Shown here: positions 15,026 through 34,386 of the stretch, in pieces
How the letters are laid out: each line of letters starts with the position of its first letter
Position numbering within the stretch: the first letter of the stretch is position 1
Origin: Escherichia phage JLBYU07
Sequence record: OK272485.1
Strand: one strand, 5' to 3'
DNA length: 50,290 bases
Position numbers and translations under genes: made by a program
The notes under the pieces: model-generated
What the model was told of the DNA's origin: nothing
Seen by the model: the letters and a program-made list of their open reading frames with translations, nothing else
The model's database searches: none

Positions 15026-15084
15026 TTACTATCTCCTGAGCGGTTCGTTTCGATGTGTGTAATGTACCCGATCAGGTGGCCTGA

Positions 15085-15106
15085 GTTTTAACAAAAAGTG
15101 CTATTT
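15085..15106 (-). promoter_or_regulatory. conserved intergenic box copy (minus orientation)
   Basis: at head of leftward early operon, about 60 nt upstream of gene 14753-15025. Confidence 0.6.
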
Positions 15107-15134
15107 GACGGTTATCGCCAGGATTGCGATCGAA

Positions 15135-15212
15135 ATAATCAAAAGTAATCATTCGTAATCAAATCACGTCAAAATGATGATTGCCTTTGCAAATTTGATG
15201 AGAAAAGTAATC
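15135..15212. promoter_or_regulatory. cluster of TAATCA iteron-like repeats in divergent control region
   Basis: AGTAATCATTCGTAATCAAATCACG ... AGTAATCACGTTTAATCATTGG; four or more TAATCA units. Confidence 0.45.
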
Positions 15213-15659
15213 ACGTTTAATCATTGGTTGCAGGGGAGATAGTGAAACCTTCCCCTCTTGCCTCACTTTTCCGCCTGGCTGTCAGTGGTTGTTGTCTTTT
15301 GTTCACCCCTGTTACCGATTTCAGGCGGCGTGTTTCCGCGCGGTTTTCCGGTGTAGCGAAAACGGAAAAAACAAAAAAAATCCTATATAATACATTGAAA
15401 ATAAAGATTATTTATTTATATATATCTATAATGTTTTCTTTTTGTTCTCACTGTTACAGTGCTTTTTGTTGGGTGTGGTGTGGTTGTGTGTTGGTATATA
15501 TGGATAGTTGCGCGCGCGGCGGATTGCATATGTATATATACTTTTTCCGGCGGATTGCGTTAACAGCGCGAACAGAAAAATAACAGCCCTGAAATCAACA
15601 ACTTGCGCATGATTTTGTAGTTTTTCGATATTGGTAACGTTTTGAATACAACAAAAACA

Positions 15660-15687
15660 TTGACACGCACCAAATAGCTTTTATAAT
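15660..15687 (+). promoter_or_regulatory. near-consensus sigma70 promoter (TTGACA-N16-TATAAT)
   Basis: TTGACA at 15660-15665, TATAAT at 15682-15687; about 30 nt upstream of GGAGG RBS of gene 15719. Confidence 0.6.
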
Positions 15688-15718: not shown

Positions 15719-16183
15719 ATGGAACAGAAGACCACTAAGGACTATTGCGATTGGCTTCGCGAGCTTGGTCGCCGCCTGGCTAGTGGCGATATTGAAGAGT
15801 ATAAAATGTCACTAATTGACCTGGCCGGAATGTTAAGCGGTGACGACTGCTACAAGATCACGCGCAGTTCATCCTACAGCCGGACCATTATCAACCGCGT
15901 TCCAGAAGTAAGGGCCGCAGGTCGGGTAAGCATCAAGGTAGAGGAAACGGAAGATGATAAATTTTACGTTTTCCGCATGGTCCGCGAATCGAAAAGGAAA
16001 ATCATCACGCCAGAAGAATTGCCAGCCATCAAGGCAAGGGCGATCAAAAAGTTTGCCGATCGCTTACTGGCAGCAATCCCGAATATCGTTGACCTGGAAG
16101 GGGATAAACTGGCTGGGGCTTGCGAGGGCGTAAGCCGCTACCAGGATATGATCCGCGAAATCATCAAAGAGGAAGAGCAATGA
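15719..16183 (+). CDS. hypothetical early protein
   Basis: 154 aa from ATG 15719 (GGAGG RBS); track start 15686 lies inside the -10 hexamer. Confidence 0.55.
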   Translation: MEQKTTKDYCDWLRELGRRLASGDIEEYKMSLIDLAGMLSGDDCYKITRSSSYSRTIINRVPEVRAAGRVSIKVEETEDDKFYVFRMVRESKRKIITPEELPAIKARAIKKFADRLLAAIPNIVDLEGDKLAGACEGVSRYQDMIREIIKEEEQ

Positions 16184-16452
16184 AAAAGGCATTAATCAGC
16201 GTTTTGGCGGCAATGGCATTCCTGACCGGATGCAAAGAAGATGGCGCGCATGTTGGCAATGTGCAGATGGCTAACCCTGGCGATGCCTACAGCGTAAGGG
16301 AGCTATTCACCGCTGACGGTTGCACCGTTTACCGATTCTATGACGATCGCACTGTTTACTTCACCAACTGCAAGGGCGCTACTAGCTGGGAAGTGTCGAA
16401 AAGCAATGGCAAAGGCACGAAGACAGAACATATGACCGTCGAAACAAAATAG
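16180..16452 (+). CDS. lipoprotein (candidate receptor-blocking superinfection-exclusion protein)
   Basis: 90 aa from ATG 16180; signal peptide plus lipobox LTGC; stop TAG in conserved box. Confidence 0.55.
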   Translation: MKKALISVLAAMAFLTGCKEDGAHVGNVQMANPGDAYSVRELFTADGCTVYRFYDDRTVYFTNCKGATSWEVSKSNGKGTKTEHMTVETK

Positions 16453-16468
16453 CACTTTTTGTTAAAAC
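16448..16468 (+). promoter_or_regulatory. conserved intergenic box AATAGCACTTTTTGTTAAAAC
   Basis: exact copy; TAG is stop of lipoprotein gene; ATAATA 23 nt after TTGTTA. Confidence 0.65.
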
Positions 16469-16469
16469 T

Positions 16470-16694
16470 CAAAAGCGATAACCAGGCATAATACACACAT
16501 AGACGGGCGGCAAGGATTGCTGCGGGAGAGGAGTAACGCAGGGGCTTGATCGAAGTGTCAGGATTCCCAACCGTGAGGCCAGAACTATCACACTAGCCAC
16601 CAGGCAGAACGCTAGATAGGTCACTGAGCTGAGGCTACCGACGAAGTGAAGCCCGTCACCAAAGATTAAACGGTTATTTATGTGAAAGGGGTTA
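16470..16694 (+). ncRNA. candidate structured non-coding RNA or long structured leader
   Basis: 225 nt with no ORF in any plus frame, GC-rich; long-range pairing GACGGGC (16502-16508) with GCCCGTC (16651-16657); internal hairpins CTGCG...CGCAG and CTAGC...GCTAG. Confidence 0.3.
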
Positions 16695-16877
16695 ATGATG
16701 GATAAGATCATCAAAATGAGCGAAGTCAAGCCGGGAATGATGGTTAAGTTTGCTGGCAAATATCGCCTAGTGCTGGATAACTGCCGCAAAGAGAACATTC
16801 TTACCATTCGTGTAAATGGCAAGGCGCAGCTATTCGCCCCTAGCTCAGATATTGACGTTGAAGTTAGAATTAAGTAA
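16695..16877 (+). CDS. hypothetical protein
   Basis: 60 aa; AAAGGGG RBS. Confidence 0.45.
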   Translation: MMDKIIKMSEVKPGMMVKFAGKYRLVLDNCRKENILTIRVNGKAQLFAPSSDIDVEVRIK

Positions 16878-16892
16878 TTAGGAGGAAACACC

Positions 16893-17786
16893 ATGTTAAA
16901 ACTTGCTGACATTAAATTCCCGATCACCTTCGAATCTCGCGGCATTGGTCATTACATTTTTACCGATGAAAAAACATGCCATAAGGTTGATTTGTATAGC
17001 TACAAGCGTGAGCCATCAAGCATGGAGATTGAACACTTCATTGATGCACATAACAAGCACTACAACGCACTTAAAGACTATGGCTACGCAATGCCAGGAT
17101 ATACCAGCTTCCACTACAAGCCATACAAGGGCCAGGTGTTACCAGTTCGCTCACCGGAACGCGCAGAGATTCCGATGGTCAATATGAAAACCTGCGACTA
17201 CAAAAAGCTGTGGTGCTTAAGTGTGGACAATATCAAGTATCCGATCACGTTCCACACAACTGGTAACTCAACGATTCGCTTCACATCACGCGACAATGGC
17301 GTTTATAGCGATGGTCAGAAATCAGAGTTGAAAGTTGATTTCTTTGTCAACGGTCACAACAAATTCAATCCGCACAACGAAGAGGATAAAGTGTATTACG
17401 TGGAAGACATTACAAAACACTTGTTTGGAGAAACTCCATTCGGCGGCGGGAAGACGGCAGTTCAGAAAATCATTGGCGAGGAGATCCACAAAGCGGCTGT
17501 CGAAATGAAAGCGCCTGGAGGCTGGCGTATTGACAAGAGCGCCTTTGCCTATCAAGAAATCGTAACGCAGGGCGCGATTGAAGATATGCCAGTTACAGCC
17601 ACGCTAAAAGGAGTCCGGCTTGATGACGGCAGTTGGTATGAATTAACGGCTACACCAAAGACGATCGAAATTCATGATGATGTTGTTATCCTTCTGCTTC
17701 ACTACGGCGGCACTAAAAACCGGACTGTTGCAGGTGAGATCAGCATCAAGCGCGGAACGATGGTTAAGTGGAAGGTGAAGATTTGA
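16893..17786 (+). CDS. hypothetical protein with internal tandem domain duplication
   Basis: 297 aa; AGGAGG RBS; two related ~100-aa segments (ADIKFPITFESRGIGHYIFT / DNIKYPITFHTTGNSTIRFT; HFIDAHNKHYN / FFVNGHNKFNP). Confidence 0.55.
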   Translation: MLKLADIKFPITFESRGIGHYIFTDEKTCHKVDLYSYKREPSSMEIEHFIDAHNKHYNALKDYGYAMPGYTSFHYKPYKGQVLPVRSPERAEIPMVNMKTCDYKKLWCLSVDNIKYPITFHTTGNSTIRFTSRDNGVYSDGQKSELKVDFFVNGHNKFNPHNEEDKVYYVEDITKHLFGETPFGGGKTAVQKIIGEEIHKAAVEMKAPGGWRIDKSAFAYQEIVTQGAIEDMPVTATLKGVRLDDGSWYELTATPKTIEIHDDVVILLLHYGGTKNRTVAGEISIKRGTMVKWKVKI

Positions 17787-23150: not shown

Positions 23151-23156
23151 AAATTA

Positions 23157-23180
23157 CCCGCCGCACGGCGGGTTTTTTAT
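23157..23180 (+). terminator. rho-independent terminator
   Basis: hairpin CCCGCCGCACGGCGGG followed by T6. Confidence 0.65.
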
Positions 23181-23200
23181 TGCCCGTTGTCTGGTATAAT
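23172..23200 (+). promoter_or_regulatory. candidate extended -10 promoter of the late operon
   Basis: TGgTATAAT at 23192-23200, weak -35; immediately upstream of terminase small subunit RBS. Confidence 0.35.
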
Positions 23201-23228
23201 CAGGCATCTAACCAAAGGAGGATTAATA

Positions 23229-23756
23229 ATGGCTAAAAATGTTGAGCCTGCTGTAAAGGCATTAAATTTCAAAGAGTTATACAATAAAACTTATGGCGAT
23301 ATTGTCACGCTAAACAACCGCCACAAGTACACGCCGGAACAGGTTTTTGATATGGCGATCCGCTATTTCACTTGGGCCGAAGAGAATCACATCCAGGCGG
23401 CTGAAACTGCTTCCTTTCAGGGTGACGTGTACGAGAGCAGAGTTTACAAGCCTCGCGTTTTCACGGTTAACGGATTCAGCTTGTATCTCGGCGTGACTGA
23501 GGCTGCCGTAAGCAAATGGCGTAAAGAGCCTGGATTCTGCGATGTGATGGAGTTTGTTGATAAAGTAATTTACGAGCAAAAATTCCAGCTTGCGGCAAAT
23601 AACATGATTAACGCTGGATTTATCGGTAAAGAGATCGGAGTAGAGAAGCCAGCAACAGTGAGCGTTGAAGCGAGCGCGGCAGCTAATGCAAGCATTGACG
23701 CAGTAACTGCCGATGAGGTGAAAGAGGCTGTGATTGATATTCTGGAGCAACTTTAA
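23229..23756 (+). CDS. terminase small subunit
   Basis: 175 aa from ATG 23229 (AAGGAGG RBS); directly upstream of and ATGA-coupled to large terminase; HTH-like segment. Confidence 0.55.
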   Translation: MAKNVEPAVKALNFKELYNKTYGDIVTLNNRHKYTPEQVFDMAIRYFTWAEENHIQAAETASFQGDVYESRVYKPRVFTVNGFSLYLGVTEAAVSKWRKEPGFCDVMEFVDKVIYEQKFQLAANNMINAGFIGKEIGVEKPATVSVEASAAANASIDAVTADEVKEAVIDILEQL

Positions 23757-25324
23757 TGATCATATGGGAAGATTTGACGGCGGCGCAAAAGCGAGCCATT
23801 AAAGAAATCAGTGAGCATTCATTCGAAAAGATGATCAGAATCTGGTTTCAGTTATTGCAGGGGCAAAAATTCCAGAGCAACTGGCATTTTAGCTTATTGT
23901 GCAGTGAGGTAGAGAAGATCATCAATGGAGAGTCGCAGAATGTGATTTTCAACATTACGCCAGGTAGCGGTAAGACTGAGATTTTCTCGATCCACATGTC
24001 ACCCTACGCGTCATTGAAAAGTCGTAAGGTGAGAAACCTTAACCTTTCGTTTAGTGATGGACTTGTCCAGCAAAACAGCAATAGGATAAAGGAGATTATC
24101 GGTTCTCCTGAGTGGCAAGAGCTATGGCCAGGAAAACTGGCAAAGGCGAGCGCAAAAGATCTCATAGTTACGGATGGCGGCAAGGTTAAATTGCAAGTTA
24201 ACTCACGTTCTATTGGCGGACAGGTAACAGGTTTGCGTGGCGGCTATATGGACGATGGTTTTACTGGTATGCTGGTTCTGGACGATCCAGACAAGCCGGA
24301 TGATATGCTTTCTAAGGTCAAGCGTGAGGCGATCCACATGCGGTTAAAAAACACAGTGCGATCGCGTCGAATGAAAGACACTACGCCGATTGTTATGGTG
24401 CAACAGCGACTACACGTTAATGATTCCACCTGGTTTATGCTTAATGGCGGGATGGGTGGTATTGAGTTTAAAGTTGTGAGTATTCCGGCGCTGGTTACGA
24501 AAGAATACCGCGAAACGCTTCCTGATTGGTTGAAGCCTGAATTTGATCGTGATGTGTTGTCAAGTAAGCCAGTGATGATAGATGGCGTTGCTCATTATTC
24601 ATTTTGGCCTGCGAAGGAAAGCGCGGAGGAATTGCTTGCATTGCGCAATGCAGATCCTTATACGTTCGCCAGTCAGTACCAACAGCAACCCATCGCGCTT
24701 GGCGGCAACGTGTTTAAAACAGAGTGGTTCCAGTATTACGGCAGCGGCGAAAAATGCGCACTTCCTAAACCGGATCGCTTTGAATACACATTTATTACTG
24801 GTGATACCGCGCAGAAGGCCGGAGAGCTTAACGACTATTCAGTTTTTTGTTATTGGGGGATGTATAAGAATCGCGTTTACTTCATTGATGGCATTCGCGG
24901 AAAGTGGGAAGCGCCGGATCTTGAATTAAATTTTATTGCCTTCGTTAATCAGTGCTGGAAGCGCAATAAGGAGTGTGGCAGCTTGCGACGTATCCACATT
25001 GAGGATAAGGCCAGCGGCACGGGTTTGATTCAGGGGGCCAAAAAGAAGATCCCGATTGATATAAATCCCGTTCAGCGAAGCAATGACAAGGTAACGCGAG
25101 CAATGGACGCCGCGCCAGTAATGAGGGCAGGACGTGTGGCACTGCCAGAAAGTCATCCCATGTTACCTGAGATACTGGCAGAGGTTGCAGCGTTCACTTT
25201 TGACGATTCTCATCCCCATGATGATATTGTCGATAATATAGTTGATGCTGTTAACGTCGAAATGAACTTGGCAGATGATCCGGTAGCAAGGATGAAAAAG
25301 CTGGCTGGTCTACGCAATAAATAG
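23756..25324 (+). CDS. terminase large subunit
   Basis: 522 aa; Walker A NITPGSGKT, Walker B-like LVLDDPD, C-terminal nuclease-type acidic residues; stop TAG in variant box. Confidence 0.85.
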   Translation: MIIWEDLTAAQKRAIKEISEHSFEKMIRIWFQLLQGQKFQSNWHFSLLCSEVEKIINGESQNVIFNITPGSGKTEIFSIHMSPYASLKSRKVRNLNLSFSDGLVQQNSNRIKEIIGSPEWQELWPGKLAKASAKDLIVTDGGKVKLQVNSRSIGGQVTGLRGGYMDDGFTGMLVLDDPDKPDDMLSKVKREAIHMRLKNTVRSRRMKDTTPIVMVQQRLHVNDSTWFMLNGGMGGIEFKVVSIPALVTKEYRETLPDWLKPEFDRDVLSSKPVMIDGVAHYSFWPAKESAEELLALRNADPYTFASQYQQQPIALGGNVFKTEWFQYYGSGEKCALPKPDRFEYTFITGDTAQKAGELNDYSVFCYWGMYKNRVYFIDGIRGKWEAPDLELNFIAFVNQCWKRNKECGSLRRIHIEDKASGTGLIQGAKKKIPIDINPVQRSNDKVTRAMDAAPVMRAGRVALPESHPMLPEILAEVAAFTFDDSHPHDDIVDNIVDAVNVEMNLADDPVARMKKLAGLRNK

Positions 25325-25340
25325 CACTAATTGCTAAAAA
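25319..25340 (+). promoter_or_regulatory. conserved intergenic box copy (variant AATAGCACTAATTGCTAAAAAG)
   Basis: TAG is stop of large terminase; followed by TATAAT and terminator. Confidence 0.55.
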
Positions 25341-25353
25341 GTTATATAATCAA

Positions 25354-25380
25354 GGCTGGATTTTTCCAGCCTTTTTTATT
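25354..25380 (+). terminator. rho-independent terminator
   Basis: hairpin GGCTGGATTTTTCCAGCC followed by T6. Confidence 0.55.
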
Positions 25381-25394
25381 ATGGAGATTTGACG

Positions 25395-26687
25395 ATGAGC
25401 GAAAAAACAAGGCTAGTTAAGGCCGATGGATACAACGAGATTTTCAAGGGTAGTAAGGGCAATGGGCGTGTAGAGTTGCCTTTCTTTATGCAGGGGTTCG
25501 AATACACCACGCACGCTGATTTTTACATTCGTGACGGCCTAGCAAAACGAATCATCGACGTTGTTCCAGAAGAAATGGTGACGCCTGGATTTAATATTGA
25601 TGGCGTGGAAGATGAGGAAAGTTTTAGATCTTTGTGGGATGAGAGGCGACTAAACGATAAAATCATTGATGCGCTTTGCTGGTCGCGTCTTTTTGGTGGC
25701 GCTGCAATCGTGGCAATCGTCCAGGATGGCAGGGCATTAAAGTCACCTGTAGCGCCTGGTGCAATCCTTGAAGATGTTCGCGTTTACGATCGCTTTCAGG
25801 TTCGCGTAGAAAAGCGCGAAACTAATCCACGTAAGGTACGATATGGCGAGCCATTAATTTACACCATTTCACCTGGTGCTGACCTGCCAGAATACCAGGT
25901 TCACTATTCGCGAGTCTGTATTATCGACGGTGAGCGGCTACCAAATCAGCGACGTCAATCAAATGATGGATGGGGTGAGTCGATCCTGAATAAGCGACTT
26001 GTTGAGGCTATTTGTGATTATAACTACTGCGAAAACTTGGCAACTCAATTGTTGCGACGTAAGCAACAGGCGGTATGGAAAGCTAAAGGTCTTGCTGATC
26101 TTTGTGATGATGATGATGGTGTTAACGCCGCACGTTTGCGCCTTGCTCAAGTTGATGATGAGGGTGGAGTGGGCCGTGCGATCGGCATTGATGCGGAAGA
26201 TGAGGAATATGATGTTTTAAATTCTGATATTTCCGGCGTCGATTCATTCCTGGAAAAGAAGATGGATCGCATTGTATCTCTTTCCGGCATCCATGAAATC
26301 ATCCTCAAAAACAAGAACGTTGGCGGTGTTAGCGCGAGCCAAAACACGGCGCTTGAAACCTTCTACAGGCTGATCGATCGAAAGCGAAAGGAAGAATACA
26401 AACCAATCCTTGAATTTCTGATCCCGTTCCTGATTCAAGAGGAAGAATGGAGTATTCAGTTTGCGCCGTTAAGCGTTCCCAGCGAAAAGGACCAGGCCGA
26501 GATCTTGAACAAGAATATTGATTCTTTGAGCAAGGCTATTGACGGTCAATTCATGGATACAGATGAGGCGCGCGACACATTGCGAGCCATTGCGCCTAAC
26601 GTTAAACTAAAAGACGGTAATGACATTAAACTACCTGAGCAGGACGTAGAGCCGGAGCCAGGAACAACCGAGGGTAGCAATCAATGA
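25395..26687 (+). CDS. portal protein
   Basis: 430 aa from ATG 25395 (GGAG RBS); position after terminase, size, acidic C-terminus. Confidence 0.65.
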   Translation: MSEKTRLVKADGYNEIFKGSKGNGRVELPFFMQGFEYTTHADFYIRDGLAKRIIDVVPEEMVTPGFNIDGVEDEESFRSLWDERRLNDKIIDALCWSRLFGGAAIVAIVQDGRALKSPVAPGAILEDVRVYDRFQVRVEKRETNPRKVRYGEPLIYTISPGADLPEYQVHYSRVCIIDGERLPNQRRQSNDGWGESILNKRLVEAICDYNYCENLATQLLRRKQQAVWKAKGLADLCDDDDGVNAARLRLAQVDDEGGVGRAIGIDAEDEEYDVLNSDISGVDSFLEKKMDRIVSLSGIHEIILKNKNVGGVSASQNTALETFYRLIDRKRKEEYKPILEFLIPFLIQEEEWSIQFAPLSVPSEKDQAEILNKNIDSLSKAIDGQFMDTDEARDTLRAIAPNVKLKDGNDIKLPEQDVEPEPGTTEGSNQ

Positions 26688-27439
26688 TAGTGAAAGGCGT
26701 CGTTAAACAATGGCGCTTTCCTGAAGCAAGTGAGCGGCAATTGCGCCGCTCAATTCAGGAGGCGGTAAGGGATCTTGTTGTGCTGATGCGCAGCAAAACA
26801 AAGGAAATGAAATTTGACGCGGACACCGAAGAAATCAACGCCGCAGAGGATGAGATTAGTAGCTTCGCGTTAAAGCTAATAGCTGGCATCGCCGCATCAC
26901 TTCCGGCTATCGGTCTTGCTGTTTATAAATTCAACGCGAAGCAATTTATTAACGTAGCCAAATCAACGGGAGGCAAGTCAAATTCAGCCGTTATCATCCT
27001 TATGGCTATTGGGGCCAATGCGAATGAGAGTTGGTATAGGACGCTATACGGTCAATGGCATGACATGACGATCGCATCTCTTCAAAAGCTATTTGGAAAC
27101 ATCGTGTCTGACTGGTCAACCAATATTAGATTGGCAAACTTTCGCGGAATGAGAGATAGCCAGGTTAATGAATTGGCTGGTAAGAGGTTCGCAGTGTATA
27201 GCTCTTGGGGTAAGACAAGGGCGGAAAACATCATAGGCGCTTGGAATAGTAGACTCATGCGCCAGCGTCTTTATGATTCAAAAGTAACTCATTATTTTTG
27301 GCATGGTATGCTTGATGACAGAGAGCGATTGCAGCATGTACAATGGGAAGGTAAGCGCATTGCGCTAGATTCTGAACATGATTTTCCTGGTGAGCCTTTC
27401 GGTTGTCGTTGTTGGGCCATACCAGATTGGAACAGTTAA
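26684..27439 (+). CDS. head morphogenesis protein (SPP1 gp7 / Mu F-like)
   Basis: 251 aa; C-terminal conserved HDFPGEPFGCRCW motif; ATGA overlap with portal. Confidence 0.7.
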   Translation: MIVKGVVKQWRFPEASERQLRRSIQEAVRDLVVLMRSKTKEMKFDADTEEINAAEDEISSFALKLIAGIAASLPAIGLAVYKFNAKQFINVAKSTGGKSNSAVIILMAIGANANESWYRTLYGQWHDMTIASLQKLFGNIVSDWSTNIRLANFRGMRDSQVNELAGKRFAVYSSWGKTRAENIIGAWNSRLMRQRLYDSKVTHYFWHGMLDDRERLQHVQWEGKRIALDSEHDFPGEPFGCRCWAIPDWNS

Positions 27440-27449
27440 GAGGTATTAA

Positions 27450-28565
27450 ATGAAGGCAAAACAAAGATTTGATAGCGCCAAAGTAAAGGCGCACTTTGAT
27501 GATAACGGGTTTTTAGTTGATCGCCCTATCGTGGCGCGAATTGGTTTACAAGTCTATCAGACTCCTTTCGGTGAGCGCAGAGAATTTCGTCCGGCGTCCG
27601 AAGTATTCAAGGCCGACTCGCTCGCCACCTTCGCAGGTAAGCCAGTCACGGTTGGTCACGTCACGGTAACGCCAGAAAACGCCGAAAAGGTTGTGGTTGG
27701 TTCTTGTGCTGGCGCTGGCGTGCCGAACGGGATCGGCGTAGAGGTTCCGTTAAGCATTTACTCAAAACGAGCAATCGAAAGCGCGAAGAAGCGAGACACG
27801 GCGGAAATTTCGGTTGGTTATACATCGGTTGATATTGATAAACCAGGCTGGGGCAATAATAAAACTGGTGAGTACGTTTTCGATGAGGATGTTAGCGAAG
27901 ACTGGAAACCTGATTCTCCTGATTGGGTTAAGTTTGATGCAATCCAGACTGAAATCAAGGTAAACCACATCGCGTTAGTTTTCCGAGGTCGAGCTGGCAT
28001 TGCAAAATTAAACCTTGATAGCCAGCAAGATTTTCCGTATAGTGACGACGTTATTAACAACAAAGAGGATCAAATCATGACTGTAAAAATTAAACTGGAT
28101 GGCGCTGTAGAGTTTGACGTGCCAAAAGCAGTTGCGGATCACATTGAAACGCTTAAAGCTGATGCCAAAGCACAGAAAGAAAAGGCGGATGGCCTGGAAG
28201 CTGAGCGCGATGCGCTGCAAACCAAAGTAGATGGCATTCAGGATCAGATTGATGCCGCAGTCAAGAAGGCCAAAGAAGATGCCGAGCAATATGCTCAATT
28301 AGTGGCAAACGCTAAAGAGTTAGGCATCAAGTGCGACGGCCTGGATGCGAAAGCAATCAAGGTTGCATACATCAAAGAAGTTATGGGTAATGACGTTTCT
28401 GATAAAGCTGATGCCTATATCGAAACAGCTTTCGACATCGCCAAAAACTCTGATAAAATGGCGGCGCAGCGTAAGAGCATTAAAGGTGACTCTTTCGCGA
28501 ATGAAAAGCAGGATGACGCAGGTTCTAAGCTGAATCCTAACGCTCGTTTTGATAAACTGAAATAA
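27450..28565 (+). CDS. putative scaffolding / head maturation protein
   Basis: 371 aa; C-terminal half is Lys/Glu/Ala-rich coiled coil; position between head morphogenesis and capsid genes. Confidence 0.4.
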   Translation: MKAKQRFDSAKVKAHFDDNGFLVDRPIVARIGLQVYQTPFGERREFRPASEVFKADSLATFAGKPVTVGHVTVTPENAEKVVVGSCAGAGVPNGIGVEVPLSIYSKRAIESAKKRDTAEISVGYTSVDIDKPGWGNNKTGEYVFDEDVSEDWKPDSPDWVKFDAIQTEIKVNHIALVFRGRAGIAKLNLDSQQDFPYSDDVINNKEDQIMTVKIKLDGAVEFDVPKAVADHIETLKADAKAQKEKADGLEAERDALQTKVDGIQDQIDAAVKKAKEDAEQYAQLVANAKELGIKCDGLDAKAIKVAYIKEVMGNDVSDKADAYIETAFDIAKNSDKMAAQRKSIKGDSFANEKQDDAGSKLNPNARFDKLK

Positions 28566-28577
28566 GGAGTAATTAAA

Positions 28578-29087
28578 ATGGCTAAAATTGGAGCAAGTTA
28601 TTTTGACACTATGGCGCGTGCGCTTCCTGGTCAGGTATCCGATACTTCGGCATATAACATCGACGGCGCTTGTGTTCTTGACAAGAAAGACGGCACCCCA
28701 ATCCTGGTTGGCGTGGCTGTTAAGCTAAAAGGCGTTGACTCAATGGGTAATAAGCTGATCGACGCTATTTCTGGTAGTGATGATGTTCCTTATGGCGTTG
28801 GCATCCGTTCGCACTTTCAAACTACGGCTGATAATGGACGAATGGTTTATGAGTCTGGCGGCGGAATCAACGTTATGACAGAGGGCCGCGTTTGGATGGT
28901 TGGCGATGATACCGACAAGAGCAAAGAACCATCGTATCGTAAGCCTGTAAAAATTGATGAAAACACTGGCAAGGTGAAAAGTGCTGGCACTATCAATACC
29001 AACTGGATTTACACGGGAGATAAAACCACATTTGGAACTGGCGATGATGTGTTGACTTTGTTTGAAGTTCAGGTCTTCCCAAGATAA
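28578..29087 (+). CDS. putative capsid-associated structural protein
   Basis: 169 aa; paralogous to next gene (shared YNIDG, INVMTEGRVWM/INILTRGVVWC, YTGD/FTGD). Confidence 0.4.
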   Translation: MAKIGASYFDTMARALPGQVSDTSAYNIDGACVLDKKDGTPILVGVAVKLKGVDSMGNKLIDAISGSDDVPYGVGIRSHFQTTADNGRMVYESGGGINVMTEGRVWMVGDDTDKSKEPSYRKPVKIDENTGKVKSAGTINTNWIYTGDKTTFGTGDDVLTLFEVQVFPR

Positions 29088-29091
29088 AATT

Positions 29092-29118
29092 AAGGCGCTC
29101 GCTTGAGCGCCTTTTTTA
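29092..29118 (+). terminator. rho-independent terminator
   Basis: hairpin AAGGCGCTCGCTTGAGCGCCTT followed by T-run. Confidence 0.7.
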
Positions 29119-29137
29119 TTATGTAAGGAGAAATGAA

Positions 29138-29920
29138 ATGGCTAAAGATTATTCATCTGTTATGGGTCTTTCTTGCCCTGGTTGTTTGGTTGATTCTACT
29201 CGCTACAATATTGATGGAACTGGCGTTTGCGGATCTGAGTCGATCATTGCTGGCAAAGTTGTTTTCTTCAAAGAGAGAGTGGAAGGTTATAACATATTTG
29301 TTGATCATAAAGAGTATGATGCTGTGGTTGCTGGTGTTGCTATAAGGAGCAATATCACGACAACGGTTAACGAGGAAGACGGATACTCTGACTATAAGGA
29401 AGGAGATTCTATCAATATTTTAACAAGAGGGGTTGTATGGTGCTTAACTCAAACGATTGAGTCTGCGCCTGAACATGGCGATCTTGTTTATGTTAACAAT
29501 GATGGTTTTGTAGCAAAAAGTGATGGCGATGAAATCGTCGATGGCTGGATTTTTACTGGTGACTTCTACAAGTTTGATGAAACAATGAACATAGTCGGAG
29601 TCAGAATAACGCCGCTTCATCATAGAAAATACCTTCTTACTGGTGCGATCATTGAGGCCGAAAATGGCTACATAGAGGGAACAGAGACGATTAATAACGT
29701 TCAATTAAAGGTAACGGTTGTTCCTACTTGGGCTGATGACAAAACGGGTCAGTGGACAATTACAAACGAGCAAGATCCAAAGGTTGCCAGCGTTAGCCGT
29801 ACAGGTCTTGTTGTTCCTACTGGTGTAGGAGGCAGAGTTAACGTCAACTGGACTGCTAATGATGGTTCTGGAGTTGCTTACCAGTTTGATATTGTATTTA
29901 CGAAAACCGCTGGCGAATAA
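29138..29920 (+). CDS. putative capsid decoration/structural protein with C-terminal Ig-like domain
   Basis: 260 aa; N-terminal paralogy with 28578-29087; C-terminal beta-rich Big_2-like region. Confidence 0.4.
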   Translation: MAKDYSSVMGLSCPGCLVDSTRYNIDGTGVCGSESIIAGKVVFFKERVEGYNIFVDHKEYDAVVAGVAIRSNITTTVNEEDGYSDYKEGDSINILTRGVVWCLTQTIESAPEHGDLVYVNNDGFVAKSDGDEIVDGWIFTGDFYKFDETMNIVGVRITPLHHRKYLLTGAIIEAENGYIEGTETINNVQLKVTVVPTWADDKTGQWTITNEQDPKVASVSRTGLVVPTGVGGRVNVNWTANDGSGVAYQFDIVFTKTAGE

Positions 29921-29945
29921 CTAATAGCATAAAAAAACATTGCAC

Positions 29946-29964
29946 GTTTAACAAAAAGTGCTAT
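29946..29964 (-). promoter_or_regulatory. conserved intergenic box copy (antisense within late operon)
   Basis: GTTTAACAAAAAGTGCTAT immediately before terminator and capsid gene RBS. Confidence 0.55.
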
Positions 29965-29969
29965 CATCT

Positions 29970-29997
29970 AGGCCGTTACATTTAACGGCCTTTTTTA
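29970..29997 (+). terminator. rho-independent terminator
   Basis: hairpin GGCCGTTACATTTAACGGCC followed by T6; lies between antisense box copy and capsid gene RBS. Confidence 0.7.
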
Positions 29998-30010
29998 TGG
30001 AGGAAGCAAA

Positions 30011-30982
30011 ATGGCTAAAAAATACGATGAATTAGATGCTACCATTGTAGCAAATCATTTACAGGTTCAGGGCGTTAAGGGTAATGCTTCTGATATGGGT
30101 ATTTGGACCGCTCAAGAGCTACACAAGATCCGCTCTACCGCATACGAGAAAGAGTATCCGGCAGGTTCCGCGCTTCGCGTATTCCCCGTAACAAACGAGC
30201 TTTCTGATACTGACAAGACTTTCGAGTATCAGACTTTTGATAAGGTTGGCTACGCGAAAATTATCGCAGACTACACCGATGATCTGCCAACTGTGGACGC
30301 GCTGATGACTTCTGAGTTTGGCAAAGTGTTCCGCCTGGGTAACGCTTTCCTGATCTCAATTGACGAAATCAAAGCAGGTCAGCGAACTGGTAAAAGCCTT
30401 TCTACTCGCAAGGCTAACGCAGCGCAGAATGCACATGATCAGCTTATTAACTTCCTGGTTTTCAAAGGTTCCAAGCCTCATAAGATCGTTTCCGTTTTCG
30501 ATCATCCAAACCTGACTAAAATCACGTCAAAAGGATGGCTGAGTAACGACGGAAACACCAAGTTTCCAGAAGTTGCAAGCGATGAACTGGAGGCCGCAAT
30601 CGAAACGATCGAGGAAGTAACAAGAGGCCAGCACCGCGCGACTAACATCCTGATCCCGCCGTCCATGCGCAAAGTCCTGACGGTTCGAATGAAAAATACC
30701 ACTGAAAGTTATCTGGAATACTTCCAGAAGCAAAACGGCGGTATCACTATCGACTCTATCGCAGAGCTTGAGGATATTGACGGCGAAGGTACGAAAGGTT
30801 GCTTGGTTTACGAAAAAGATCCAATGAACATGAGCATTGAGATTCCAGAAGCGTTTAACATGCTTCCGGCGCAGCCAAAAGACCTTCACTTCAAGGTTCC
30901 TTGCACTTCCAAGTGTACTGGCCTTACGATTTACCGTCCGTTTACGATGGTGCTTATTACTGGCTTGAAAAAGTCAGATTAA
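30011..30982 (+). CDS. major capsid protein
   Basis: 323 aa; strong GGAGGAAG RBS, flanked by terminators, position and size typical of the HK97-fold capsid gene. Confidence 0.6.
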   Translation: MAKKYDELDATIVANHLQVQGVKGNASDMGIWTAQELHKIRSTAYEKEYPAGSALRVFPVTNELSDTDKTFEYQTFDKVGYAKIIADYTDDLPTVDALMTSEFGKVFRLGNAFLISIDEIKAGQRTGKSLSTRKANAAQNAHDQLINFLVFKGSKPHKIVSVFDHPNLTKITSKGWLSNDGNTKFPEVASDELEAAIETIEEVTRGQHRATNILIPPSMRKVLTVRMKNTTESYLEYFQKQNGGITIDSIAELEDIDGEGTKGCLVYEKDPMNMSIEIPEAFNMLPAQPKDLHFKVPCTSKCTGLTIYRPFTMVLITGLKKSD

Positions 30983-30993
30983 TTAGATAACAT

Positions 30994-31022
30994 GGGGAGC
31001 CTTAAGGGTTCCCCTTTTTTAT
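30994..31022 (+). terminator. rho-independent terminator
   Basis: hairpin GGGGAGCCTTAAGGGTTCCCC followed by T8. Confidence 0.75.
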
Positions 31023-31038
31023 TTATGGAGTACACAAA

Positions 31039-31305
31039 ATGAGCAAAACTTTAAAACTTAAAGTAACTGGCGTTTGCATGATTATTATGGACGGTAAGCG
31101 TTATCATCCTGGTGATGAAATTGAAATTGAATCAGATCGCATTAATGATTCCGCAATTGAATACCTGATCGCTCGCGGCGATGTGGAAGTTAAAGACAAT
31201 TCCGAAATTAACGAGCAAATCAAGGAGAAAGCGGAGAAGAAGCGCAAAAAAGATCCTACCGAGGGCAAGAGCCGCAAAGAGCTAGAGGATGGCGGCGAAT
31301 ATTAA
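31039..31305 (+). CDS. hypothetical protein
   Basis: 88 aa; Lys/Glu-rich C-terminus. Confidence 0.5.
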
Positions 31306-31351
31306 TAATTGGGGCGCTTATGCGCCCCTTGTCATATCTGGAGAAAACAAA

Positions 31352-31771
31352 ATGGTAGATGAATTTTACACAGACGCTGAAATCGTTCAGCAAATCGTAA
31401 AGTTGGCCCCACCAATGCAGCAGGTTGATCACGATTTAATTGTGGCATGGATTGAGCTTGCTAAAGAATTTGTTTGCAAAAAACGGTTTAAAAACTCATA
31501 CCCGAAAGCGGTTGCGCTTTACACTCTTCACCTTATGACCTTAGACGGGGCAATGAAACAGGAAGGTGAAAGCGTAGAAAGCTATTCCCGCCGCGTTGCC
31601 TCGTTCACTCTGACTGGTGAGTTTAGTCAGACTTTTGATCGAATTTCTTCCGATACAAGCGGAAAGCAGATCCGACAAACGCCGTGGGGCAAAATGTACG
31701 AAGTGTTAAACCGTAAGCACGGTGGCGGCTTTGGACTTGTAACTGGATTGCGCCGGAGATGTTGCCGATGA
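31352..31771 (+). CDS. putative head-tail connector / DNA-packaging adaptor
   Basis: 139 aa from ATG 31352 (GGAG RBS); position between capsid and neck genes. Confidence 0.4.
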
Positions 31772-32142
31772 ATTACAATGAGATTGCAAGAATGGCTACT
31801 GCTGGGATTAACTTTTTCAGCGACGCTAACGGTATGTTTAAGTGCATCACGCAGCAGGGAGGGGTTGAGATTATCGGCGGAGAGGAAGTTACCAAGCCTG
31901 AGATTTCAGTGATGATAAAGGGGCTTGTTAGATCTCCGAGGACTAGAGAGGTTGACGGTGAAACAATCCGAGTAACCGACAAGTTGGGGATATTCACCAA
32001 TGAAACTGAGATCAAAAATGGTTATCAGATTGAAATTGATGGCGATCGTTACGTTGTCGTTGAAGCAAGACCAGTCAGGCAGACTAACATCACGGCAGCT
32101 TATCGTCCGATATTAAGGAGGATTGCAGTGCATGGCGGATAA
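31768..32142 (+). CDS. putative head closure / head-tail joining protein
   Basis: 124 aa from ATG 31768; overlaps previous stop. Confidence 0.4.
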
Positions 32143-32575
32143 TTATAAGATCAGGGAATTTCACGGTGATATAAGCAGGTGGATTGATTCAGTAAGCAGC
32201 GGCCTTGTTGATTGCGTTGAAATGTTCGCGACAAACGTCCACGAGGATCTTGTAAAGCGTTCGCCAGTTGATACGGGCCGATATAAAGCTAACTGGCAGG
32301 TAACAGCAAACAAGCCGCCGCTATATGCTCTCAATCAATACGATCGCGATGGTAGTAAAACCATTGCAGAAGGCAAGCGAGCAATATATGCAATCATGCG
32401 GGGCGGTGGCGCGGTGCGGTCAATCTATTTTTCAAACATGCTTATTTACGCCAATGCGCTTGAATACGGGCATTCAAAACAAGCGCCGTCCGGCGTGCTG
32501 GGAATCGTGGCGGTAAAGCTGCGATCCTATATGACTAAGGCAATAAAGGATTCGAGGGCAAAAAATGCACTATGA
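32132..32575 (+). CDS. HK97 gp10-like neck/tail component
   Basis: 147 aa from ATG 32132 (AAGGAGG RBS); conserved NMLIYANALEYGHS motif. Confidence 0.55.
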   Translation: MADNYKIREFHGDISRWIDSVSSGLVDCVEMFATNVHEDLVKRSPVDTGRYKANWQVTANKPPLYALNQYDRDGSKTIAEGKRAIYAIMRGGGAVRSIYFSNMLIYANALEYGHSKQAPSGVLGIVAVKLRSYMTKAIKDSRAKNAL

Positions 32576-32966
32576 TTTAATGTTAGCGGCAAGAAAGGCG
32601 CTGGCGGCGGAATATGAATCACGATTCAAGATCGCCTATGAAAACGTTGATTTTGTTCCGCCTGGTGATGGTTCGACGTGGTTAAAATTTGACTACATGG
32701 AAGCCGACACAGATCGCATATCTCTTGATAGAAAATGCGTTTCTTATATCGGATTGGTTCAGGTTGGAATTGTTATGCCTCCTGGCGGCGGCACTGATAA
32801 AGCGCGTTTACTGGCTAAAGAGATTGCGAGATTTTTCTATGATGGTAGAATGCTTGAAACTGGCTATATTAGCGAGGGGGCAAACGTCCACAAATTACTA
32901 AAAAGTGAAACAGGTTGGTTATTGCCGATCCGTTTCAGTGTTAGGCTTGATACAAAGGAGGAATAA
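32565..32966 (+). CDS. putative tail terminator / tail completion protein
   Basis: 133 aa; position immediately upstream of major tail protein. Confidence 0.4.
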   Translation: MHYDLMLAARKALAAEYESRFKIAYENVDFVPPGDGSTWLKFDYMEADTDRISLDRKCVSYIGLVQVGIVMPPGGGTDKARLLAKEIARFFYDGRMLETGYISEGANVHKLLKSETGWLLPIRFSVRLDTKEE

Positions 32967-32968
32967 TC

Positions 32969-33631: not shown

Positions 33632-33636
33632 AACAA

Positions 33637-33657
33637 GGGGCGTTGCGCCCCTTTTTT
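33637..33657 (+). terminator. rho-independent terminator
   Basis: hairpin GGGGCGTTGCGCCCC followed by T6. Confidence 0.75.
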
Positions 33658-33696
33658 CATTCCTGTAAAATCAATCTATCAAATAAATCAATCCCA

Positions 33697-33716
33697 CTTT
33701 TAACAAAAAGTGCTAT
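33697..33716 (-). promoter_or_regulatory. conserved intergenic box copy (antisense within late operon)
   Basis: CTTTTAACAAAAAGTGCTAT directly abuts AAGGAG RBS of G chaperone gene. Confidence 0.6.
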
Positions 33717-33730
33717 AAGGAGATCTTGAG

Positions 33731-34365: not shown

Positions 34366-34386
34366 GCGCCGCGAGGCGCTTTTTTA
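34364..34386 (+). terminator. rho-independent terminator
   Basis: hairpin AAGCGCCGCGAGGCGCTT followed by T5. Confidence 0.55.

What the first reader, a model, noticed from the sequence alone, without database searches (positions are those of the whole stretch)
16470..16694. GC-rich 225-nt non-coding segment with long-range pairing, candidate structured RNA
Seen in sequence: between the lipoprotein gene (ends 16452) and gene 16695 there is a 225-nt segment with no ATG-initiated ORF in any plus frame. It is GC-rich relative to neighbouring intergenic DNA, with complementary ends GACGGGC (16502-16508) and GCCCGTC (16651-16657) and internal hairpins CTGCG-GGAGAGGAGTAA-CGCAG and CTAGC-CACCAGGCAGAAC-GCTAG. 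Intergenic space this long is unusual in this tightly coupled genome. Inference: a structured 5' leader, small RNA or cis-acting element. A tRNA cloverleaf or T-loop was looked for and not found.
Basis: partly seen in the sequence, partly recalled or inferred. Interest (0 to 1): 0.5.

Follow-up and report, generated by a model that had tools for sequence, protein, structure and literature searches.

The report
Conserved structured leader RNA in coliphages
The gap holds a real, about 155-nucleotide folded RNA at the start of a phage transcript; it is shared almost letter for letter by more than 170 otherwise unrelated enterobacterial phages, matches no catalogued RNA family, and its job is still unknown.

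Summary
In this sequence alone the signal is at chance level. A 7-bp long-range inverted repeat occurs in 39% of shuffles, and the folding z-score is +1.2.

Comparison rescues it. Window 16498-16663 (+) is an island of conservation found in 171 phage records: Warwickvirus, Dhillonvirus, Jilinvirus, Sortsnevirus, Serratia MQ-4 and others. It is absent from E. coli genomes and plasmids, and its flanks cannot be aligned between lineages.

- **Covariation:** in 35 distinct copies, 95% of model pairs are standard pairs, against 30-42% in slid controls. 27 of 48 pairs show double-sided changes.
- **Strand:** G-U versus A-C counts place the fold on the + strand.
the end pairing (P1) is confirmed. The two inner hairpins are not.
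- **Context:** every copy sits 7-10 nt after a -10 hexamer and is followed by an A/C-rich spacer, a ribosome-binding site and cargo genes that differ by lineage.
- **Known families:** no Rfam, tRNA or tmRNA match, and no conserved ORF.

Function is inferred only. It is most likely a promoter-proximal leader domain that binds some partner and acts in cis. I rank RNA-polymerase read-through of the put/EAR/canT type first, narrowly ahead of 5'-end stabilisation or CsrA control, a riboswitch, and a trans-acting decoy.

The parts
16459..16492 (+). Promoter-like stretch: TTGTTA (16459-64), a 22-nt spacer, then the -10-like CATAAT (16487-92). It scores weakly as a sigma-70 promoter in this lineage.
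   Evidence: Read directly. The strict scan does not call it. A -10-like hexamer lies 7-10 nt before P1 in every lineage, with consensus TTGACA -35 boxes in several. The same stretch is conserved in Hanrivervirus and Webervirus relatives that lack the element.
16498..16663 (+). The whole structured RNA element, about 155 nt between the outer ends of P1.
   Evidence: Covariance model R1 gives 142 bits, E = 1e-39, and a single copy in the window. The aligned island is shown.
16502..16508 (+). P1, 5' strand (GACGGGC). It pairs with 16651-16657.
   Evidence: 7 of 8 P1 pairs show double-sided changes across lineages and 91% of cells are paired.
16509..16521 (+). P2 hairpin GGCAA-GGA-UUGCU. The GGA in the loop is invariant. 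The loop reads CAGGAUG or CAGGACG in other lineages.
   Evidence: 100% of cells are paired with three stem types. The loop resembles CsrA sites, which have GGA in apical loops (PMC5207318). This is a resemblance only.
16525..16545 (+). Nearly invariant purine-rich core strand GGAGAGGAGUAACGCAGGGGC. It contains GGRGY (16530-34), the proposed 5' strand of helix PX.
   Evidence: Invariant columns. The PX pairing is 100% compatible but rests on one clade-confounded double change.
16536..16574 (+). P6, a long irregular hairpin: ACG..GGGGCUUGAU-CGAAGU-GUCAGG-AU-UCCC..CGU. It includes a second CAGGAU.
   Evidence: RNAalifold with constraints. 96% of cells are paired, but 7 of 10 pairs never vary. The support is U-A / G-U / U-G variation at three pairs.
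16577..16631 (+). The P3-P4-P5 arm. P3 is 16577-82 with 16624-30. P4 is 16585-89 with 16615-19. A closing A-U pair joins 16590 and 16613. P5 is 16596-98 with 16603-05, capped by a 4-nt loop that is GNRA in most relatives. The strands CACU and AGAACGC flanking P5 are conserved.
   Evidence: P4 has ten different helix versions and 100% of cells paired. P5 has four versions and 100% paired. The closing pair is A-U in 18 copies and C-G in 17. P3 is 85% paired on a hand-fitted register.
16632..16646 (+). Nearly invariant core strand AGGCUACCGACGAAG. GCUACC (16634-39) is the proposed 3' strand of PX; GGCUACC (16633-39) can alternatively pair with GGGGCU (16541-46).
   Evidence: Both pairings are 100% compatible and they are mutually exclusive.
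16651..16657 (+). P1, 3' strand (GCCCGUC).
16658..16694 (+). Unstructured spacer, A/C-rich and G-poor in most lineages, with a Shine-Dalgarno AAAGGGG at 16685-91. It also holds a minimal ATG-TGA at 16680-85.
   Evidence: Sequence. Spacers of the other lineages are shown.
16695..16877 (+). First downstream gene, 60 aa, PHROG 8121, function unknown. It is cargo and not part of the RNA.
   Evidence: The same gene occurs without the element in 144 Klebsiella phages.

Best explanation
What it is (shown): a conserved structured RNA domain of about 155 nt, encoded on the + strand at 16498-16663.
- It is closed by helix P1.
- It carries a GGA-loop hairpin (P2), a long invariant hairpin (P6) and a three-helix arm (P3-P4-P5).
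- The parts are joined by about 50 nearly invariant purine-rich junction nucleotides.
- It is made as the very first part of a phage transcript, and one copy occurs per genome.
- It behaves as a portable module: a promoter, the element, an A/C-rich spacer and a ribosome-binding site, followed by whatever cargo genes the lineage has.

How it most likely works (inferred): the folded domain binds a conserved enterobacterial partner and acts in cis on the transcript that carries it. My first choice is that it binds the RNA polymerase that has just made it, as the put, EAR and canT RNAs do. Transcription then continues through the intrinsic terminators that lie 0.5-1.4 kb downstream in several lineages, while the closed 5' end also shields the mRNA from decay.

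Layered confidence:
- Real + strand structured RNA: about 0.93.
- 5' leader that acts in cis: about 0.55-0.6.
- Read-through (antitermination) as the mechanism: about 0.3, which is the figure entered below.
For: Conservation:
- The island covers query positions 86-230 only, in phages whose flanks do not align.
- It is present in 171 phage records, 15 metagenome contigs and 20 IMG/VR contigs.

Structure:
- 95.5% of cells are paired, against 30-42% when partners are slid.
- 27 of 48 pairs have double-sided changes, and 0 of 500 shuffles reach the observed values.
- Within the closely related Dhillonviruses, one P4 pair runs A-U, U-A and C-G.

Strand: G-U occurs at 12 pair positions (93 cells) and A-C at 2 positions (27 cells).

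Position:
- A -10 hexamer lies 7-10 nt before P1 in all lineages.
- The HK578 record annotates that promoter.

Cargo independence: the downstream genes belong to six different PHROGs.

Read-through context:
- In HK578 the element heads the 12-kb replication operon.
- A 7-GC-pair terminator follows its first gene, and the next gene starts 20 nt later.
- Strong terminators followed by co-directional genes also occur in Motto, in L016 (same terminator in L190) and in L192.
- In PT1 the next + gene starts about 400 nt after the terminator and a weak promoter-like site lies in that gap, so PT1 does not require read-through.

Precedent: RNA-only cis antiterminators of unrelated sequence and of 70 to about 450 nt exist in mobile elements (PMC9378689; PMC11658703).
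Against: - No transcript, 5' end, binding or read-through was measured. Every functional step is inference.
- The Warwickvirus of this window has no + strand terminator for 6.5 kb after the element.
- Sister genera with the same gene order lack the core. Hanrivervirus keeps only a plain hairpin and Webervirus has nothing. The element is therefore dispensable there.
- In L021 and L026 the cassette ends at a terminator facing a convergent 711-aa gene. Read-through would be harmful there.
- There is no similarity to put (about 70 nt, two stem-loops).
- The central helices PX and P6 are mostly invariant and so are untested by covariation. The one PX double change is confounded by clade structure.
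- The consensus fold is 8-13 kcal/mol above each sequence's own predicted minimum free energy.
Confidence: 0.3

Rival explanations
1. A 5'-UTR expression module. The P1-closed domain at +3/+4 protects the 5' end from RppH and RNase E. The unstructured A/C-rich spacer serves as a ribosome landing site. The invariant GGA hairpin (P2) and the second CAGGAU recruit CsrA or another host RNA-binding protein to set stability or translation.
For: - P1 starts a few nt after the predicted transcription start in all lineages.
- Hanriverviruses keep a plain 5' hairpin at exactly this place.
- The cassettes look like morons: promoter, element, 1-3 small genes, terminator.
- The P2 loop reads CAGGA(U/C)G with GGA in the apical loop, as in CsrA sites. 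CsrA acts on 5' UTRs, can mask RNase E sites and can promote Rho termination (PMC5207318).
Against: - A simple hairpin suffices for 5' protection, so about 90 invariant nucleotides and a two-junction fold are left unexplained.
- The second GGA is inside a stem.
- The CsrA resemblance is post hoc.
Confidence: 0.22
2. A riboswitch-type aptamer for a small molecule or ion, for example a nucleotide, an alarmone or an immune-signal nucleotide. It would gate expression of the early or replication operon.
For: - The architecture is typical of aptamers: a closing P1, multi-helix junctions with invariant unpaired nucleotides, and a GNRA-capped peripheral helix.
- There are two mutually exclusive, fully conserved pairings for the strand GGCYAYC.
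- It lies next to replication genes in Dhillonvirus, MQ-4 and PT1.
Against: - No terminator/antiterminator or SD-sequestering platform was found. The spacer is unstructured and G-poor.
- The downstream genes are functionally incoherent.
- No Rfam aptamer matches even at E <= 10.
Confidence: 0.15
3. A trans-acting RNA cut out of the 5' UTR. It would act as a decoy, sponge or inhibitor for a host factor or an anti-phage defence component, or as a new ribozyme. On this reading the downstream genes are irrelevant.
For: - The distribution is patchy and points to horizontal transfer across unrelated phage genera. The element is dispensable in sister genera and is expressed from strong early promoters, like accessory or anti-defence genes.
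- Sequence-level invariance of paired and unpaired core nucleotides fits recognition of a partner.
- The A/U-containing single-stranded spacer after P1 could be an RNase E site.
Against: - No copy has its own terminator directly after P1. It is always fused to an mRNA at 20-45 nt, though PT1 has about 115 nt.
- No partner has been identified.
- No similarity to known decoy RNAs, C4/CI RNAs or ribozymes.
Confidence: 0.2
4. A DNA-level element. It would be a folded single-stranded + strand DNA, or an R-loop primer, acting as a replication priming or origin signal.
For: It lies next to helicase or primase genes in three lineages. The RNA-sense strand is G-rich, with positive GC skew.
Against: - Invariant G-U wobble pairs and GNRA loops are RNA features.
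- It is always co-oriented with, and directly behind, a promoter and directly before a translated gene.
- It is not near replication genes in Warwickvirus.
Confidence: 0.04
5. No RNA function. It would be a hidden small protein gene, or a recently transferred DNA stretch conserved only because it is young.
For: - Some records annotate hypothetical proteins over it.
- The window's - strand frame is open.
- The single-sequence statistics are at chance level.
Against: - No frame is open in all lineages, and starts and frames differ.
- Variable columns show no codon periodicity: 34/31/27.
- Variation is concentrated in helices and is compensated, which recency cannot explain.
Confidence: 0.03

Closest known systems
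HK022 put RNAs (putL/putR), RNA-only processive antiterminators
   Same: Both are phage-encoded and promoter-proximal. Both fold so that the 5' and 3' ends pair. Both would act independently of downstream gene identity, in phages that rely on host RNA polymerase. An early operon with a terminator after the first gene(s) is seen in HK578, Motto and L016 (PMC9378689).
   Different: put is about 70 nt with two stem-loops. This element is about 155 nt with two junctions and five to seven helices. There is no sequence similarity. Activity on RNA polymerase is untested. The element is absent from sister phages with the same operon layout.
canT of Tn916 and EAR of Bacillus (other cis-acting antiterminator RNAs)
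   Same: These show that mobile elements use unrelated, larger structured RNAs (from about 120 to about 450 nt) for the same task (PMC11658703).
   Different: They occur in Gram-positive hosts. There is no homology, and canT is not at the 5' end.
Riboswitch aptamers
   Same: A 5' UTR location, a closing P1, invariant junction nucleotides, covarying peripheral helices and a GNRA-capped stem.
   Different: No expression platform, no coherent regulon, no Rfam match, and it spreads without its cargo genes.
5'-terminal stabiliser stem-loops (ompA type; from general knowledge)
   Same: A base-paired structure within a few nucleotides of the transcription start. A plain hairpin occupies the same site in Hanriverviruses.
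   Different: Stabilisers need no conserved sequence. Here about 90 nt are invariant.
CsrA-binding hairpins (CsrB repeats, CsrA-regulated leaders)
   Same: The P2 loop reads CAGGA(U/C)G with GGA in an apical loop, and a second CAGGAU lies about 45 nt downstream.
   Different: There are only one or two candidate sites, and the rest of the fold is unexplained by CsrA. Binding is not tested.
Unnamed candidates in large catalogues of viral structured RNAs (PMC10690425)
   Same: That survey mined IMG/VR for covarying motifs upstream of genes, so this element may be one of its 10,006 entries.
   Different: This could not be checked because the supplements are not held. No named or characterised motif in the text matches.

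Membership tests
Any Rfam 15 family (riboswitches, ribozymes, sRNAs, leaders, C4/CI, 6S, SRP, RNase P and others) | A covariance-model match at the gathering score or at a permissive E-value. | tested here: not met
   No hit in the whole window at gathering score. No hit at E <= 10 on 16300-16900. No hit on the element in five other lineages at E <= 10.
tRNA / tmRNA / tRNA-like | A cloverleaf or tRNA-like domain detectable by ARAGORN, with a 3' CCA after the acceptor stem. | tested here: not met
   ARAGORN finds none. ACCA follows P1 in some lineages, but ACCU, UACC and CAUC occur in others.
HK022 put-type antiterminator RNA | About 70 nt, two stem-loops forming a V, with conserved put sequence. 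| tested here: not met
   This element is about 155 nt with a different helix plan. The put description comes from PMC9378689.
HK022 put-type antiterminator RNA | Lies between an early promoter and downstream terminators, in the sense orientation. | tested here: met
   This is met in Dhillonvirus, Motto, PT1, L016 and L192, but not in this window's lineage.
HK022 put-type antiterminator RNA | Cis-acting modification of RNA polymerase that suppresses termination. | not testable with these tools
   This needs reporter or in-vitro transcription assays.
Riboswitch | A conserved aptamer with covariation in a 5' UTR. | tested here: met
Riboswitch | An expression platform: a terminator/antiterminator or SD sequestration overlapping the aptamer. 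| tested here: inconclusive
   No terminator or anti-SD was found after P1 in most lineages. GC hairpins without a U-tract occur in MQ-4 and PT1 only. An alternative core pairing exists.
Riboswitch | Association with genes of one pathway. | tested here: not met
   Six unrelated PHROGs of unknown function, and no Pfam domains.
Riboswitch | Specific ligand binding. | not testable with these tools
   -
CsrA-bound leader or sponge | GGA (A(N)GGA) in an apical hairpin loop. | tested here: met
   GGA in the P2 loop is invariant in 35 copies. The criterion comes from PMC5207318.
CsrA-bound leader or sponge | Two or more accessible sites, and CsrA binding. | tested here: inconclusive
   The second CAGGAU is base-paired in P6. 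Binding cannot be tested here.
Protein-coding gene | An ORF conserved in frame across relatives, with codon-periodic variation. | tested here: not met
Self-cleaving ribozyme (known classes) | A match to the hammerhead, twister, twister-sister, pistol, hatchet, HDV-like or glmS cores. | tested here: not met
   No Rfam hit. The nested P1 topology is unlike the HDV double pseudoknot (own reading). A new class cannot be excluded.

The most novel reading that the evidence does not exclude
This is a new class of phage riboregulator with a specific molecular partner. The partner could be the host RNA polymerase (an RNA-only antiterminator twice the size of put), a small-molecule or immune-signal ligand (an orphan riboswitch or RNA sponge), or a host or defence protein (a decoy). 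It spreads horizontally as a promoter-plus-RNA module among virulent enterobacterial phages, including the Dhillonvirus and Drexlerviridae models of the BASEL collection.
Probability: 0.4. Interest if true: 0.8.

Novelty: new member of a known kind. Interest (0 to 1): 0.62.

Why it matters
**What sets it apart:** structured RNAs of this size, with about 90 invariant nucleotides and clean covariation, are usually riboswitches, ribozymes or protein- or polymerase-binding regulators. This one matches none of the 4,227 Rfam families.

**Where it sits:** in Dhillonviruses it heads the main replication operon. In several other coliphage groups it heads accessory cassettes.

**How testable it is:**
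- It occurs in phages that grow on E. coli K-12: tunus, swan01, HK578, and BASEL phages such as GeorgBuechner, TheodorHerzl, PaulFeyerabend, Oekolampad and HeidiAbel.
- Natural minus variants exist. Hanrivervirus has a plain hairpin and Webervirus has nothing.

**What it could show:** it could reveal how T1-like and HK578-like phages, which have no known antiterminator and no polymerase of their own, control long operons studded with terminators. It could also reveal a new RNA-based host-manipulation or counter-defence device.

**A methodological point:** thermodynamic screening (z-score) would have discarded this element. Only comparison found it.

Tried and rejected
- **Rfam:** gathering and permissive scans on the window and on five other lineages found nothing on the element.
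- **ARAGORN:** nothing.
- **Single-sequence folding, both strands:** not better than shuffles.
rejected by comparison.
- **MAFFT plus RNAalifold on unaligned sequences:** indels mis-align P3 and P4, and only P5 and a long-range core helix are recovered. I replaced this with a hand-built, N-padded structural alignment.
- **14- to 18-nt pattern scans of IMG/VR:** almost all extra hits were chance. nhmmer kept only true copies plus L182.
- **Genome scan:** one hit, in a phage-like MAG contig.
- **E. coli genomes and plasmids:** no copy, so it is neither a host-RNA mimic at the sequence level nor prophage-borne.
- **Second diverged copy per genome (as putL/putR):** none with the covariance model.
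- **IS200/TnpB omega-RNA idea, from HK578 'transposase' gp45:** gp45 has only HTH domains.
- **Obligate partnership with the 60-aa downstream gene:** rejected. 144 Klebsiella phages carry that gene without the element.
- **All-against-all mutual information for tertiary pairs:** dominated by the two-clade structure and not informative.
- **Literature:** searches by sequence string, by taxon plus ncRNA terms, for phage ncRNA counter-defence and for CsrA plus phage found no description. The one sequence-string hit was a chance umuDC guide.
- **Resemblances I noticed by eye:** RNase P RNA, 4.5S RNA, the tRNA T-arm complement, GEMM-I and the k-turn. None was supported by any tool, and all are dropped.

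Full report
**1. The observation.**

The window is a T1-like siphovirus of the genus Warwickvirus (Drexlerviridae). It is 96-98% identical to phages tunus and swan01.

- Between a DUF4884 lipoprotein-like gene (16180-16452) and a 60-aa gene (16695-16877) lie 242 nt with no + strand ORF of 25 aa or more.
- The complementary words GACGGGC and GCCCGTC are at the stated coordinates.
- In swan01's annotation the equivalent gap is the fourth largest of about 80.

On this sequence alone, however, nothing exceeds chance.

- A perfect 7-bp inverted repeat at least 50 nt apart appears in 39% of shuffles and in 60% of real 225-nt windows of the same genome.
- The predicted folding energy is no better than that of dinucleotide shuffles: z = +1.23 on the + strand and -0.10 on the - strand.
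- Rfam gives nothing at the gathering score for the whole window or at E <= 10 for the region. ARAGORN finds nothing.

**2. What comparison shows.**

A sensitive BLAST of the gap gave an unexpected pattern.

- The middle of the gap (window about 16525-16669) matches phages of quite different groups at 73-83%. These are Dhillonvirus (HK578, EP23, many BASEL phages), Jilinvirus PT1, Sortsnevirus sortkaff/IME279, Serratia phage MQ-4 and the Tempevirinae phage Motto.
- The match is usually in unannotated DNA, and the flanks do not align.
- The core alone is present in 171 of 50,697 phage records, in 20 IMG/VR contigs and in 15 metagenome contigs.
- One GTDB contig also has it, and that contig is itself a phage genome.
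- It is absent from 5,426 complete E. coli genomes and from 72,556 plasmids.

The alignment shows long invariant blocks:

- GGAGAGGRGYRACGCAGGGGC
- GAUCGWAGURUCWGGAUUCCCAACCGUGA
- CACU..AGAACGC
- AGGCYAYCGACGAAG

These blocks are separated by short segments that differ completely between lineages yet stay complementary to each other.

**3. Structure.**

Indels sit inside helices, so I built a structural alignment of the 35 distinct copies by hand and imported it unchanged. The model has these parts, in window coordinates:

- **P1:** 16502-08 with 16651-57.
- **P2:** a hairpin at 16509-21 with an invariant GGA loop.
- **PX:** a proposed helix, 16530-34 with 16634-39.
- **P6:** a long irregular hairpin, 16536-74.
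- **P3-P4-P5 arm:** 16577-16631. It ends in a 3-bp helix capped by GAAA, GCAA or GAAC in most lineages.

The counts on the full 48-pair model are:

- 95.5% of 1,588 cells are standard pairs, against 30-42% when the 3' partners are slid by 1-3 columns.
- 27 pairs carry double-sided changes.
- None of 500 column shuffles reaches the observed pairing or covariation score.

Support differs by helix.

- **P4** occurs in ten versions: CUAUC/GAUAG, CAUUGG/CCAAUG, CGCUGG/CCAGUG, CGCAC/GUGCG, CGUAC/GUGCG, CAUAAC/GUUAUG, CCAGGU/ACCUGG, CCUGGU/ACCAGG, CCCGGU/ACCGGG and CAUGAU/AUCAUG. The last four but one arose within the closely related Dhillonviruses, so they are independent events.
- **P5** has four versions. 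**P2** has three. **P1** has six or more.
- **The pair closing P4** is A-U in 18 copies and C-G in 17.
- **G-U** occurs at 12 pair positions (93 cells) and **A-C** at only 2 (27 cells), so the folded strand is the + strand.

Only 58% of cells are paired and the covariation score is 0.007, below all shuffles.

Several caveats apply.

- The registers of P1 and P3 were fitted by hand.
- P6 and PX are mostly invariant, so covariation cannot test them.
- The single double change in PX coincides with the main clade split.
- The strand GGCYAYC can pair equally well with GGGGCY, an exclusive alternative.
- The consensus fold is 8-13 kcal/mol above each sequence's own predicted minimum.

**4. Not a gene and not a known RNA.**

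- No reading frame is open in all lineages. ORF starts and frames differ, and variable columns show no codon periodicity.
- Rfam at E <= 10 finds nothing on the element in five further lineages.
- A covariance model built from the alignment finds exactly one copy per genome. In the window it is 16498-16663, at 142 bits. No diverged second copy appears.

**5. Context.**

In every lineage a -10-like hexamer (TATAGT, TATTAT, TAATAT, TATCAT or CATAAT) ends 7-10 nt before P1.

- Several lineages have consensus TTGACA -35 boxes.
- The HK578 record annotates this promoter.
- In the window's lineage the -35 is poor. The best TTGTTA lies 22 nt away and the strict scan does not call it.

After P1 come 20-45 nt of A/C-rich, G-poor spacer, a Shine-Dalgarno sequence and a gene. 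In PT1 the spacer is about 115 nt.

The downstream genes belong to six unrelated PHROGs of unknown function and have no Pfam domains. The upstream genes also differ.

The element is optional within Drexlerviridae.

- Hanriverviruses (KarlJaspers, pSf-1) have the same promoter followed by a plain GGGCG...CGCCC hairpin and no core.
- Weberviruses (KLPN1 and 143 other Klebsiella phages) have the promoter and the 60-aa gene with no structure at all.
- tunus-type genomes have two extra ORFs inserted upstream, and the element stays with its downstream gene.

In HK578 the element heads the 12-kb leftward operon that carries the exonuclease, the annealing protein, the DNA polymerase, a helicase and the methylases. 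A 7-GC-pair intrinsic terminator follows the first gene, and the next gene starts 20 nt later.

Strong terminators 0.5-1.4 kb downstream also occur in other lineages.

- In Motto, in L016 (same terminator in L190) and in L192 they are followed by co-directional genes.
- In PT1 the next + gene starts about 400 nt after the terminator and a weak promoter-like site lies in that gap.
- In L021 and L026 they face a convergent gene.
- In the window none occurs for 6.5 kb, although seven strong + strand terminators lie between 23 and 34 kb.

**6. Mechanism.**

*Shown:* a conserved, + strand, single-copy, non-coding, structured element placed directly behind a -10 box and before a translated gene, independent of cargo.

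*Inferred:* it is the 5'-terminal domain of an mRNA and recognises a conserved partner. The reasons are that about 90 nt, paired ones included, are invariant across phages of Escherichia, Salmonella, Klebsiella, Enterobacter and Serratia.

Among mechanisms I rank cis-acting read-through control of the put/EAR/canT type first, at about 0.3.

- It best fits the promoter-proximal position, the cargo independence, the layout of element, first gene(s), terminator and further genes in four or more lineages, and the restriction to phages that depend on host polymerase.
- Precedents of unrelated sequence and size exist.
- It is weakened by the dispensability of the element in sister genera and by the convergent-gene cassettes.

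A 5'-UTR stability, translation or CsrA module follows at about 0.22.

- It is supported by the plain hairpin left in Hanriverviruses, by the moron-like cassettes and by the P2 loop CAGGA(U/C)G, which looks like a CsrA site.
- It leaves the complexity of the fold unexplained.

A processed trans-acting decoy or sponge comes next at about 0.2, favoured by the patchy, horizontally transferred, accessory-like distribution.

A riboswitch is at about 0.15. It has an aptamer-like build and two exclusive core pairings, but no platform and no regulon.

A DNA-level role, a hidden peptide, or no function at all together get less than 0.1.

**7. Comparison with what is known.**

It works most like promoter-proximal regulatory RNAs (put, EAR, canT, riboswitch aptamers, 5' stabilisers). 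It is a member of none.

- Every family-defining sequence or structure test that could be run was not met.
- The functional tests cannot be run with these tools.
- The literature held here contains no description by sequence string or by topic.
- It may be one of 10,006 unnamed candidates in a 2023 catalogue whose supplements I could not read.

**8. Verdict.**

- The feature is a new, uncatalogued family of a known kind, a structured phage leader or non-coding RNA.
- It is of above-average interest because it is large, sharply conserved, widespread in laboratory coliphages, and directly testable with natural minus variants.

Noticed in passing
window 15026-15687: A 660-nt gene-free stretch that ends in a perfect sigma-70 consensus promoter, TTGACA-16-TATAAT (15660-15687). 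The promoter heads the + strand operon and lies opposite - strand genes. This is probably the main early control region.
   Followed up: partly
window 23156-34381: Seven strong intrinsic-terminator hairpins on the + strand, four of them called on both strands, inside a long co-directional run of structural genes. How the phage reads through them is not known.
   Followed up: no
window 16680-16685: A minimal start-stop ORF (ATG TGA) immediately before the Shine-Dalgarno sequence of gene 16695. It is present in the Warwickvirus copies only.
   Followed up: no
L200 1255-1275 and L201 1256-1276 (KarlJaspers, pSf-1): Hanriverviruses have the same promoter but only a plain GGGCG...CGCCC 5' hairpin where this window has the 155-nt element plus the 60-aa gene. 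It looks like a deletion derivative that kept P1.
   Followed up: partly
L204 825-900 (Klebsiella phage KLPN1); window 16459-16492: The motif AGCACTTTTTGTTAAAAC lies a fixed 22 nt before the -10-like hexamer in Warwick-, Hanriver- and Weberviruses. That spacing is too wide for a sigma-70 -35 box. It may be a factor-dependent (middle?) promoter or a protein-binding site.
   Followed up: no
L182 1513-1677 (- strand): This copy has a B-type backbone but carries D-type letters at three separated spots: P6 positions 55-56, the P4-closing pair 101/124, and an A-to-U change at position 69. This hints at a tertiary contact between P6 and the P4 junction. There are only two independent events.
   Followed up: partly
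window 16530-16534 / 16541-16546 / 16633-16639: The strand GGCYAYC can pair with either of two G-rich strands. Both pairings are kept in all 35 copies and they exclude each other. This may be a conformational switch.
   Followed up: partly
L202 34712-34731 (HK578, - strand): A strong terminator (GGCCCGC...GCGGGCC UCUUUUU) lies between the first and second genes of the replication operon, 20 nt before the next start codon. It is conserved in other Dhillonviruses (L009, L014, L017).
   Followed up: partly
phage records MG0656xx, ON843697.1, OQ221563.1; GTDB contig QFQS01000013.1 (L184): Several records are T1-like, Dhillonvirus-like or Sortsnevirus-like enterobacterial phage sequences by DNA identity, despite their names: Campylobacter phage A1xx, Pseudomonas phage Motto, Acinetobacter phage NJ01 and a 'Cereibacter sphaeroides' MAG contig. 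The host labels look doubtful.
   Followed up: no
L202 35575-36003 (HK578 gp45): This gene is annotated 'transposase' but matches only helix-turn-helix domains. It is transcribed divergently from the element's promoter and is probably a regulator.
   Followed up: partly
L001 2426-2812 (tunus): Two extra small ORFs are inserted between the lipoprotein gene and the element, relative to this window and swan01.
   Followed up: no
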